From: Escherichia coli
GTDB taxonomy: Bacteria > Pseudomonadota > Gammaproteobacteria > Enterobacterales > Enterobacteriaceae
Assembly: GCF_024223415.1 (NCBI RefSeq)
Contig: NZ_CP100500.1
Length of the DNA stretch: 64,000 nt
Reading direction: 5' to 3' (one strand)
Position numbers and translations under genes: made by a program. The notes under the pieces are model-generated. The model made no database searches. It saw only the letters and a list, made by a program, of their open reading frames with translations, and was not told the origin of the DNA. Below are positions 42,359 through 42,812 of this stretch, piece after piece; the stretch's first letter is position 1, and each line of letters opens with the position of its first letter.

Positions 42359-42484
42359 TTTAAGTCGAACACAATAAAAATTTAATTCAGCCTTCGTTTA
42401 GGTTACCTCTGCTAATATCTTTCTCATTGAGATGAAAATTAAGGTAAGCGAGGAAACACACCACACCATAAACGGAGGCAAATA

Positions 42485-42580
42485 ATGCTGGGTAATATGA
42501 ATGTTTTTATGGCCGTACTGGGAATAATTTTATTTTCTGGTTTTCTGGCCGCGTATTTCAGCCACAAATGGGATGACTAA
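42485..42580 (+). CDS. mgtS: small inner-membrane protein MgtS (31 aa)
   Basis: atg ctg ggt aat atg … tgg gat gac taa = MLGNMNVFMAVLGIILFSGFLAAYFSHKWDD; GGAGG Shine-Dalgarno 5 nt upstream. Confidence 0.85.
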   Translation: MLGNMNVFMAVLGIILFSGFLAAYFSHKWDD

Positions 42581-42607
42581 TGAACGGAGATAATCCCTCA
42601 CCTAACC

Positions 42608-42647
42608 GGCCCCTTGTTACAGTTGTGTACAAGGGGCCTGATTTTTA
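42608..42647 (+). terminator. intrinsic terminator downstream of mgtS
   Basis: Stem ggcccctt…aaggggcc followed by tgattttta. Confidence 0.6.
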
Positions 42648-42652
42648 TGACG

Positions 42653-42765
42653 GCGAAAAAAAACCGCCAGTAAACCGGCGGTGAATGCTTGCATGGATAG
42701 ATTTGTGTTTTGCTTTTACGCTAACAGGCATTTTCCTGCACTGATAACGGATCGTTGACACAGTA
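42653..42765 (-). ncRNA. mgrR: probable PhoP-dependent sRNA MgrR (boundaries approximate)
   Basis: Minus-strand GC hairpin plus nine-U tract at 42653..42680; PhoP-box-like direct repeat AGTTTA-N5-CGTTTA at 42789..42805 on the same strand; location between mgtS and dgcZ matches recalled mgrR position. Confidence 0.45.
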
Positions 42766-42812
42766 GCATCAGTTTTCTCAATGAATGTTAAACGGAGCTT
42801 AAACTCGGTTAA

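What the first reader, a model, noticed from the sequence alone, without database searches (positions are those of the whole stretch)
42359..42812. Convergent mgtS / putative mgrR pair with back-to-back terminators
The mgtS ORF is unambiguous. Downstream, a plus-strand terminator (42608..42647) sits directly next to a minus-strand GC hairpin plus nine-U tract (42653..42680). About 110 nt further upstream on the minus strand is a direct repeat AGTTTA-N5-CGTTTA (42789..42805) that fits the PhoP box. I interpret this as the PhoP-dependent sRNA MgrR running toward mgtS. The same PhoP-box-like motif overlaps the position where an un-duplicated dgcZ would stop. Upstream of mgtS, CGTTTA lies 12 bp before a TAATAT -10-like hexamer, a possible PhoP half-site.
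Basis: partly seen in the sequence, partly recalled or inferred. Interest (0 to 1): 0.3.

Follow-up and report, generated by a model that had tools for sequence, protein, structure and literature searches.

The report
Known mgtS / MgrR low-magnesium locus
This stretch is the well-studied E. coli low-magnesium locus in which the small-protein gene mgtS and the small regulatory RNA MgrR are transcribed toward each other and stop at adjacent terminators, so the finding is correct but ordinary.

Summary
Window 42359-42812 is the E. coli ydeE / mgtS-mgtT / mgrR / dgcZ locus. Rfam RF01407 (STnc560, the MgrR family) hits 42574-42787 (-) at 281.9 bits against a cutoff of 55. By transfer of the MG1655 annotation, mgrR is 42656-42753 (-), 98 nt, and mgtS is 42485-42580 (+). 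Published Term-seq 3' ends in MG1655 map to 42643 (+) and 42663 (-), so both terminators are experimentally supported. Published work states that the two genes are convergent and PhoQP-dependent.

Three corrections:
1. **PhoP box register.** In about 60 homologous loci (Escherichia, Salmonella, Citrobacter, Scandinavium, Klebsiella and others), the conserved mgrR promoter is xGTTTA-N5-xATTGA-N12-TAnnnT. In the window this is CGTTTA/CATTGA at 42794-42778, with -10 TACTGT and TSS 42753.
2. **U tract.** It has eight U, not nine.
3. **Missed gene.** It contains the mgtS terminator and overlaps the MgrR 3' end in antisense.

The mgtS "half-site" is the strong half of a conserved full PhoP box. Interest is low.

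The parts
42384..42400 (+). mgtS promoter PhoP box: weak distal half-site AATTCA (42384-42389), spacer GCCTT, strong proximal half-site CGTTTA (42395-42400)
   Evidence: Sequence. The pattern (A/G)(A/G)TT(C/A)A-N5-(T/C)GTTTA-N12-TAnTAT is conserved in Escherichia, Citrobacter-type, Scandinavium-type and other loci; Salmonella has TGCTTA. In E. albertii and E. whittamii, conservation begins exactly at the distal hexamer. PhoQ/PhoP dependence comes from the literature.
42413..42418 (+). mgtS -10 hexamer TAATAT, 12 bp after the PhoP box. The inferred TSS is about 42425, giving a 5' UTR of about 60 nt.
   Evidence: Sequence. The hexamer is invariant in Escherichia and follows TAnTAT in most of the other lineages examined; the Scandinavium-type loci have TATTCT. 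The TSS is inferred, not measured here.
42485..42580 (+). mgtS CDS (31-aa inner-membrane small protein MgtS, formerly YneM)
   Evidence: ORF list; MG1655 annotation b4599; NCBIfam NF033842 equivalog at 80.6 bits against a cutoff of 35.
42580..42684 (+). mgtT CDS (34 aa). Its start overlaps the mgtS stop (TAATGA). It contains the mgtS terminator hairpin and overlaps the MgrR 3' end in antisense by 29 nt.
   Evidence: MG1655 annotation b4775 and RefSeq 'protein MgtT'. The mgtS-mgtT operon is PhoQP-dependent (PMC11429745). The N-terminus MNGDNPxxNRPL is conserved, while the C-terminus varies from 24 to 60 aa or is absent in other lineages. No NCBIfam model matches.
42608..42646 (+). Intrinsic terminator of the mgtS transcript: hairpin 42608-42638 and T-run 42642-42646. 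The measured 3' end is at 42643.
   Evidence: Fold: -22.6 kcal/mol, z = -3.7. Term-seq 3' end at MG1655 1622804 (+), equal to window 42643. The hairpin is conserved in 13 lineage variants, with compensatory changes in 5 of 13 pairs.
42656..42753 (-). MgrR sRNA, 98 nt. Features: 5' stem-loop nt 5-35 (42749-42719); A-rich (ARN)n tract at about 42717-42702; target-pairing region U55-A68 (42699-42686); terminator stem nt 72-91 (42682-42663); U8 tail (42663-42656).
   Evidence: Rfam RF01407 at 281.9 bits; MG1655 ncRNA b4698; fold. The 98-nt length, structure, seed and U8 numbering from PMC6239178 fit this sequence. The 5' stem covaries and the core is invariant in 19 diverged homologues. Term-seq gives a minus-strand 3' end at 42663 with 2.4 million reads.
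42760..42765 (-). mgrR -10 hexamer TACTGT, 7 nt upstream of the annotated TSS G42753
   Evidence: The hexamer is invariant in Escherichia. TAnnnT sits at the same position in all intact homologues, predicting RNAs of 97-102 nt.
42778..42794 (-). Conserved mgrR PhoP box: CGTTTA (42794-42789), spacer ACATT, CATTGA (42783-42778), located 12 bp upstream of the -10
   Evidence: The pattern xGTT(T/G)A-N5-xATT(G/T)(A/G)-N12-TAnnnT is found in every intact homologous locus examined, across several genera. PhoP binding itself was not tested here.
42800..42805 (-). Extra upstream hexamer AGTTTA, in phase (11 bp) with the box.
   Evidence: Sequence; MG1655 dgcZ end. The hexamer is present only in Escherichia. 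E. albertii carries an 11-bp insertion here, and other genera lack it or have only weak GTT-like sequence.
42574..42787 (-). Full extent of the Rfam STnc560 model match. It is longer than the RNA: it also covers the mgrR core promoter, the antisense of the mgtS terminator and the last 7 nt of mgtS.

Best explanation
This is the E. coli PhoQ/PhoP-controlled low-Mg2+ module mgtS(-mgtT) / mgrR.

**Promoters.** Phosphorylated PhoP binds a direct-repeat box that takes the place of the -35 element, 12 bp upstream of the -10, at each of two facing promoters.
- P-mgtS: AATTCA-N5-CGTTTA, with -10 TAATAT.
- P-mgrR: CGTTTA-N5-CATTGA, with -10 TACTGT.

**Plus strand.** This promoter produces the mgtS-mgtT mRNA. 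Most of it ends at an intrinsic terminator (3' end at 42643), which lies inside the mgtT ORF.

**Minus strand.** This promoter produces the 98-nt Hfq-dependent sRNA MgrR (42753 to 42656). MgrR has a 5' stem-loop, an A-rich Hfq distal-face motif, a single-stranded seed (nt 55-68) and a Rho-independent terminator with a U8 tail.

**Arrangement.** The two terminated RNAs end 12-20 nt apart and do not overlap.

**What is shown here:** identity, coordinates, structures, and conservation of both promoters and both terminators.

**Taken from the literature:** PhoP dependence, Hfq binding, MgrR targets (eptB, ygdQ, pitA) and the MG1655 3' ends.

**From general knowledge (papers not held):** MgtS action on MgtA and PitA.

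For: - Rfam RF01407 full-length hit at 281.9 bits against a cutoff of 55.
- MG1655 annotates mgtS, mgtT, mgrR and dgcZ in the same order and orientation, with near-identical sequence.
- MgtS matches NCBIfam at 80.6 bits against a cutoff of 35.
- Both terminators fold as expected, and Term-seq 3' ends map to 42643 (+) and 42663 (-).
- Literature: the genes are convergent and PhoPQ-dependent. Both are direct PhoP targets, shown with lacZ fusions. The mgtS-mgtT operon is PhoQ-dependent. MgrR is 98 nt with the structure, seed and U8 described above.
- The box-N12-(-10) architecture is conserved at mgrR in all intact loci of about 60 examined, and it predicts a 97-102 nt RNA. It is also conserved at mgtS.
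- Covariation supports the MgrR 5' stem and the mgtS terminator.
- The convergent pairing is conserved in Escherichia, Salmonella, Citrobacter and Scandinavium.
Against: - Nothing contradicts the identification.
- No expression data exist for this particular strain.
- The TSS at 42753 rests on the MG1655 annotation and on comparative spacing. The primary paper (Moon & Gottesman 2009) could not be read.
Sequence alone therefore does not prove which register PhoP occupies in E. coli.
- The Term-seq MgrR 3' end maps to the first U of the U8 tract, 7 nt inside the annotated end. This is unexplained.
Confidence: 0.95

Rival explanations
1. PhoP binds AGTTTA-N5-CGTTTA (42805-42789). The -10 is AAAACT (42776-42771), 12 bp downstream. 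Transcription starts near 42764 and gives a ~109-nt primary transcript, which would have to be trimmed to the annotated 98 nt.
For: - Both hexamers match (T/G)GTTTA in 5 of 6 positions, better than CATTGA.
- The canonical 12-bp spacing to an A2/T6 hexamer also holds in this register. That hexamer is AAAACT, AAAAGT or AAAAAT in Escherichia species.
- The Rfam model draws a small hairpin across 42770-42757, upstream of the annotated +1.
Against: - The annotated RNA starts at 42753 and is 98 nt.
- AGTTTA is absent outside Escherichia. In E. albertii an 11-bp insertion separates it from CGTTTA.
- In all other genera only the CGTTTA-N5-xATTGA-N12-TAnnnT register exists, and it predicts 97-102 nt RNAs, matching E. 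coli only if the TSS is 42753.
- The AGTTTA hexamer may still act as an auxiliary third half-site.
Confidence: 0.08
2. The minus-strand RNA is not an independent gene. It is only the 3' UTR of dgcZ, or a processing product of it, ending at the shared terminator.
For: No terminator-like site was found between the dgcZ stop (42799) and 42753 in the scan of 42200-43000. dgcZ transcripts therefore probably do read into mgrR and end at its terminator.
Against: - The box/-10 promoter is conserved in loci where the upstream gene is not dgcZ. Examples are a LacI-family gene in Klebsiella-type loci and different upstream sequence in Salmonella-type and Citrobacter-type loci.
- An mgrR promoter-lacZ fusion reaching only to +10 is PhoP-regulated (PMC3536696).
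- In this window dgcZ is frameshifted by a 26-bp duplication, which is irrelevant to mgrR.
Confidence: 0.02
3. The plus-strand hairpin at 42608-42638 is mainly mgtT coding sequence or a regulated attenuator rather than a simple mgtS terminator. Much plus-strand transcription continues across the MgrR 3' end.
For: - The hairpin lies inside the annotated mgtT ORF.
- MgtT start-site ribosome footprints are induced in low Mg2+ (PMC11429745).
- A Rho-dependent plus-strand 3' end exists further downstream, antisense to dgcZ, at MG1655 1623270 (PMC7815308 supplement 2).
Against: - A Term-seq 3' end sits in the T-run at 42643.
- The stem is preserved by compensatory changes that alter the MgtT amino acids: VTVVY, VTTAY, ATFVC, VAVMH.
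- The mgtT C-terminus is not conserved and is absent in several lineages.
- This rival is compatible with the main explanation, as partial read-through.
Confidence: 0.1

Closest known systems
MgrR sRNA of E. coli K-12 (b4698; Rfam RF01407 'STnc560')
   Same: The position, orientation and 98-nt length are the same. The sequence is identical except nt 4 (C here, U in MG1655). The 5' stem-loop, A-rich tract, seed nt 55-68, terminator and U8 tail all match.
   Different: Nothing functional differs. The Rfam model (214 nt) is longer than the RNA and includes promoter sequence and antisense mgtS 3' sequence.
mgtS (yneM) - mgtT operon of E. coli K-12
   Same: The MgtS and MgtT proteins are identical, the overlapping TAATGA junction is the same, and the promoter and terminator sequences are the same.
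   Different: None was found in this window.
Canonical PhoP-activated promoters, with a (T/G)GTTTA-N5-(T/G)GTTTA box replacing the -35 element (consensus as quoted in PMC7667037)
   Same: Both promoters here have a direct repeat with an 11-bp period ending 12 bp before the -10 hexamer, and neither has a recognisable -35 element.
   Different: Each box has one strong and one degenerate half-site (mgrR: CGTTTA and CATTGA; mgtS: AATTCA and CGTTTA). Escherichia mgrR also carries a third in-phase hexamer, AGTTTA, one turn further upstream.

Membership tests
MgrR / Rfam RF01407 (STnc560) | Match to the family covariance model above the gathering score | tested here: met
   281.9 bits against 55, E = 1.8e-64, model positions 1-214 of 214.
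MgrR / Rfam RF01407 (STnc560) | Orthologous position: between mgtS and dgcZ, convergent with mgtS, as annotated in E. coli K-12 | tested here: met
   MG1655 feature table transferred to the window; 5,407 of 5,426 complete E. coli genomes carry a match covering at least 80% of the queried stretch 42300-42960.
MgrR / Rfam RF01407 (STnc560) | Hfq-type sRNA anatomy: single-stranded conserved seed, A-rich (ARN)n motif, Rho-independent terminator with a U tail of at least 6 | tested here: met
   Fold. The core AAACAC(A)AATCTATCCATGCAAGCATT is invariant, the 5' stem covaries, and the tail is U7-U10 in 19 homologues. The numbering agrees with PMC6239178.
MgrR / Rfam RF01407 (STnc560) | PhoP-dependent promoter | tested here: inconclusive
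   A conserved PhoP-box-like repeat lies 12 bp from the -10. PhoP dependence itself is known only from the literature for K-12 and cannot be measured here.
MgrR / Rfam RF01407 (STnc560) | Hfq binding and repression of eptB and ygdQ | not testable with these tools
   Literature only.
MgtS (NCBIfam NF033842, equivalog) | Full-length match above the curated cutoff | tested here: met
   80.6 bits against 35, residues 1-31 of 31.
Intrinsic (Rho-independent) terminators, both strands | GC-rich hairpin followed by a U run, with an RNA 3' end in the run | tested here: met
   Hairpins and U runs. MG1655 Term-seq 3' ends map to 42643 (+) and 42663 (-). The plus-strand stem shows compensatory changes. 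The simple scanner missed the plus-strand site because a TGA separates the stem from the T-run.
PhoP box | (T/G)GTTTA-N5-(T/G)GTTTA direct repeat with at most about 2 mismatches near -35 | tested here: inconclusive
The conserved pair sits at -41 to -25 but has 4 mismatches (1 + 3). The looser motif is not enriched in the window. Conservation supports function, but binding was not tested.

The most novel reading that the evidence does not exclude
Two modest possibilities are not excluded.

(a) The third in-phase hexamer, found only in Escherichia (AGTTTA, embedded in the last codon and stop of dgcZ), gives the mgrR promoter an extended PhoP site. This might set its unusually sensitive response to moderately low Mg2+.

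(b) The last 14 codons and the stop codon of mgtT lie beyond the mgtS terminator and are antisense to the MgrR terminator. Full-length MgtT would therefore be made only from read-through transcripts, which can pair with or collide with MgrR transcription. That would create a cis-antisense link between two PhoP-induced genes.
Probability: 0.12. Interest if true: 0.35.

Novelty: already known. Interest (0 to 1): 0.08.

Why it matters
The finding has little significance as a discovery. The locus, its regulation and its products are textbook for E. coli Mg2+ homeostasis. The useful outputs are an exact coordinate map for this window and the correction of the PhoP-box register from cross-genus conservation. 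A further output is the reminder that the annotated mgtT ORF runs through the mgtS terminator into the MgrR terminator. This layout could allow read-through-dependent translation or antisense interplay, and I found no test of it in the papers I could read.

Tried and rejected
- **Genome scan with a 22-mer.** GCGTAAAAGCAAAACACAAATC returned only Escherichia. Other genera differ in that stretch: Klebsiella-type loci lack one A, and Salmonella has GTATAAGC.
- **First metagenome scan.** A variant pattern starting with a non-G base found nothing.
- **YdeE synteny route.** I tried to reach other genera through YdeE homologues and five contig look-ups. This failed: in Citrobacter koseri, C. amalonaticus, C. 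sedlakii, a record labelled C. freundii and an unclassified Enterobacterales genome, ydeE is followed directly by an ABC-transporter operon, with no room for mgtS or mgrR.
- **MgtS protein search.** At 31 aa, MgtS is too short for the search for homologous proteins.
- **Papers not held.** Moon & Gottesman 2009, Wang 2017, Yin 2019, Weaver 2019, Hemm 2010 and Thomason 2015 could not be read. No primary TSS or footprint data could therefore be read.
- **STnc560 = MgrR.** No held paper contains both names. The equivalence rests on coordinates and on my own knowledge.
- **Klebsiella and Rfam.** Klebsiella loci do not reach the Rfam gathering score because the 214-nt model includes Escherichia/Salmonella-specific flanks. 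Homology there rests on the invariant core, the terminator and the promoter layout.
- **Rejected: mgrR as only a dgcZ 3' UTR.** See the rival explanations.
- **Rejected: the 26-bp dgcZ duplication affecting the mgrR promoter.** It lies 46 nt or more upstream of the hexamers.

Full report
**Observation.**

- The 31-aa ORF at 42485-42580 (+) is MLGNMNVFMAVLGIILFSGFLAAYFSHKWDD.
- Downstream, GGCCCCTTGT...ACAAGGGGCC (42608-42638) is followed by TGATTTTTAT. As RNA it folds at -22.6 kcal/mol (z = -3.7).
- On the minus strand, ACCGCCGG-UUUA-CUGGCGGU (42682-42663) is followed by a U tract. The A-run on the plus strand is 42656-42663, so the tract is eight U, not nine.
- AGTTTA-AGCTC-CGTTTA is present at 42805-42789 (-).
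- CGTTTA (42395-42400) lies 12 bp before TAATAT (42413-42418).
- The strict core GTTTA-N6-GTTTA occurs three times in the window against 0.23 expected. The consensus with two mismatches is not enriched (23 against 18). The motif therefore carries weight only through position and conservation.

**Identity.**

- Rfam finds RF01407 (STnc560) at 42574-42787 (-), full-length, at 281.9 bits against a gathering score of 55.
- The stretch 42300-42960 matches 5,416 of 5,426 complete E. coli genomes, and the features under the best matches are annotated ydeE, mgtS, mgtT and dgcZ.
- I transferred the MG1655 feature table (window = MG1655 - 1,580,161). This gives mgtS 42485-42580 (+), mgtT 42580-42684 (+), ncRNA mgrR 42656-42753 (-, 98 nt) and the native dgcZ stop at 42799-42801.
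- MgtS matches NCBIfam NF033842 at 80.6 bits against a cutoff of 35. MgtT has no model.
- The window's MgrR differs from K-12 only at nt 4.
- The MFE fold (5' stem-loop nt 5-35, open centre, terminator nt 72-91, U8) agrees with the probed structure in PMC6239178. That paper describes a 98-nt RNA with an (ARN)5 tract, a pairing region U55-A68 and a U8 tail, and its numbering fits this sequence.

**Experimental support from the literature.**

- PMC3536696 lists mgrR and yneM (mgtS) among genes directly activated by PhoP, and uses promoter-lacZ fusions of both.
- PMC11429745 shows PhoQ-dependent induction of an mgtS-mgtT operon.
- Term-seq in MG1655 (PMC7815308, supplement 1) reports a plus-strand 3' end at 1622804. 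This is window 42643, in the T-run after the hairpin.
- The same table reports a very abundant minus-strand 3' end at 1622824. This is window 42663, the first U of the MgrR tail.
- Both 'back-to-back terminators' are therefore real. The terminated RNAs end 12-20 nt apart and do not overlap.

The annotated 34-aa ORF mgtT starts at the mgtS stop (TAATGA) and runs to 42684. It therefore contains the mgtS terminator, and its last 29 nt are antisense to the MgrR terminator.

- The terminated mRNA (3' end 42643) lacks the final 14 codons and the stop codon of mgtT, so full-length MgtT needs read-through. This is an inference.
- A Rho-dependent plus-strand 3' end further downstream, antisense to dgcZ, shows that some plus-strand transcription exists there.
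- Across lineages the hairpin is kept by compensatory changes in 5 of 13 pairs, and these changes alter MgtT residues.
- The MgtT C-terminus varies from 24 to 60 aa or is missing.
- The constraint on this segment therefore appears to be mainly on the RNA hairpin.

**Promoters, by comparison.**

The first attempts to reach other genera failed. A search of the plasmid collection then turned up Klebsiella copies. These revealed the shared core, and a second metagenome scan gave 62 loci. MgtS variants in these loci are named by public sources as Salmonella, Citrobacter, Scandinavium and other Enterobacteriaceae.

- **mgrR promoter.** In every intact locus it reads xGTT(T/G)A-N5-xATT(G/T)(A/G)-N12-TAnnnT. 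With a start 7 nt after the -10, the RNA is 97-102 nt.
- **In the window.** The box is CGTTTA (42794-42789), ACATT, CATTGA (42783-42778). Twelve bp follow, then TACTGT (42765-42760) and G42753. This reproduces the annotated 98 nt exactly.
It shares only CGTTTA with the conserved box. Its AGTTTA is a third hexamer, in phase and one turn upstream, seen only in Escherichia. E. albertii has an 11-bp insertion at that point. Conservation and the annotated start favour the downstream register.
- **mgtS promoter.** In E. albertii and E. whittamii, conservation starts exactly at the distal hexamer.

**Conservation of the arrangement.**

- mgtS lies convergent, 131-167 nt from the MgrR core, in Escherichia, Salmonella, Citrobacter freundii-type, Scandinavium-type and further lineages.
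- Klebsiella-type loci have mgrR alone, after a LacI-family gene.
- The MgrR 5' stem covaries (for example UA in 8 sequences against AU in 7), while the seed is invariant in 19 diverged sequences.

**Verdict.**

The object is the already known mgtS / MgrR locus.

- Corrections: the PhoP-box register, eight U rather than nine, and the overlooked mgtT.
- Novelty: already known. Interest is low.
- The only open points are whether the extra Escherichia hexamer matters, and whether read-through of the mgtS terminator links mgtT translation to MgrR. Both are speculative.

Noticed in passing
window 42851-42912 (dgcZ 3' end, minus strand): A 26-bp tandem duplication (2.4 copies, unit CCGGTTTGCTTACCCTCATACATTGC) frameshifts dgcZ. 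The ORF becomes 302 aa ending at 42813 instead of the native stop at 42799. In the search of the complete E. coli genomes (5,386 with a match), every listed best match aligned in two pieces spanning 70 rather than 96 bases, so none carries the duplication. It may be strain-private or an assembly error.
   Followed up: partly
L014 about 1440-1620 (K. africana plasmid pFF1003_1, NZ_CP059392.1); also hits H36, H37, H39: Klebsiella plasmids of 88-138 kb (pFF1003_1 is typed IncFIA/IncFII and conjugative) carry an MgrR-like copy next to a GNAT acetyltransferase gene. The core, terminator and -10 are intact, but the distal PhoP half-site is deleted relative to chromosomal copies.
   Followed up: partly
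L007 10307-10533 (Escherichia sp. MOD1-EC7003): This strain keeps mgrR (Rfam 180.6 bits) but lacks mgtS. Homology to the window begins inside the mgtS terminator hairpin, and unrelated sequence lies upstream.
   Followed up: no
window 12812-12828 (-) and 11808-11824 (+): A perfect PhoP box (TGTTTAGTCACGGTTTA) and a one-mismatch box (TGTTTATTGATAGTTTA) lie within about 1 kb of each other in a fimbrial gene cluster (fimA-like major subunit, chaperone, usher, HTH protein).
   Followed up: partly
window 42663 (MG1655 1622824, minus strand): The dominant Term-seq 3' end of MgrR (2.4 million reads) maps to the first U of the U8 tract, 7 nt inside the annotated 3' end. For sgrS, the same table places the end at the eighth U. 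This is unexplained; it could reflect trimming in vivo or a mapping effect.
   Followed up: no
window 54208-54406 (-): Rfam RF02111 'IS009' matches full-length at 226.8 bits against a gathering score of 117.
   Followed up: no
homologous locus in NZ_LR134092.1 (NCTC10444) and NZ_LT795502.1 (KV7): An IS1 element is inserted somewhere within the stretch equivalent to window 42300-42960 in these two strains. The exact insertion point was not determined.
   Followed up: no
L008-L012 (Citrobacter koseri, C. amalonaticus, C. sedlakii, a record labelled C. freundii, and an unclassified Enterobacterales genome): In these genomes ydeE is followed within 17-47 bp by a convergent ABC-transporter operon, so the ydeE-mgtS linkage seen in E. 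coli is not general. Contigs whose MgtS variant is named Citrobacter freundii do have the convergent mgtS/mgrR pair; whether ydeE lies next to it there was not checked.
   Followed up: partly
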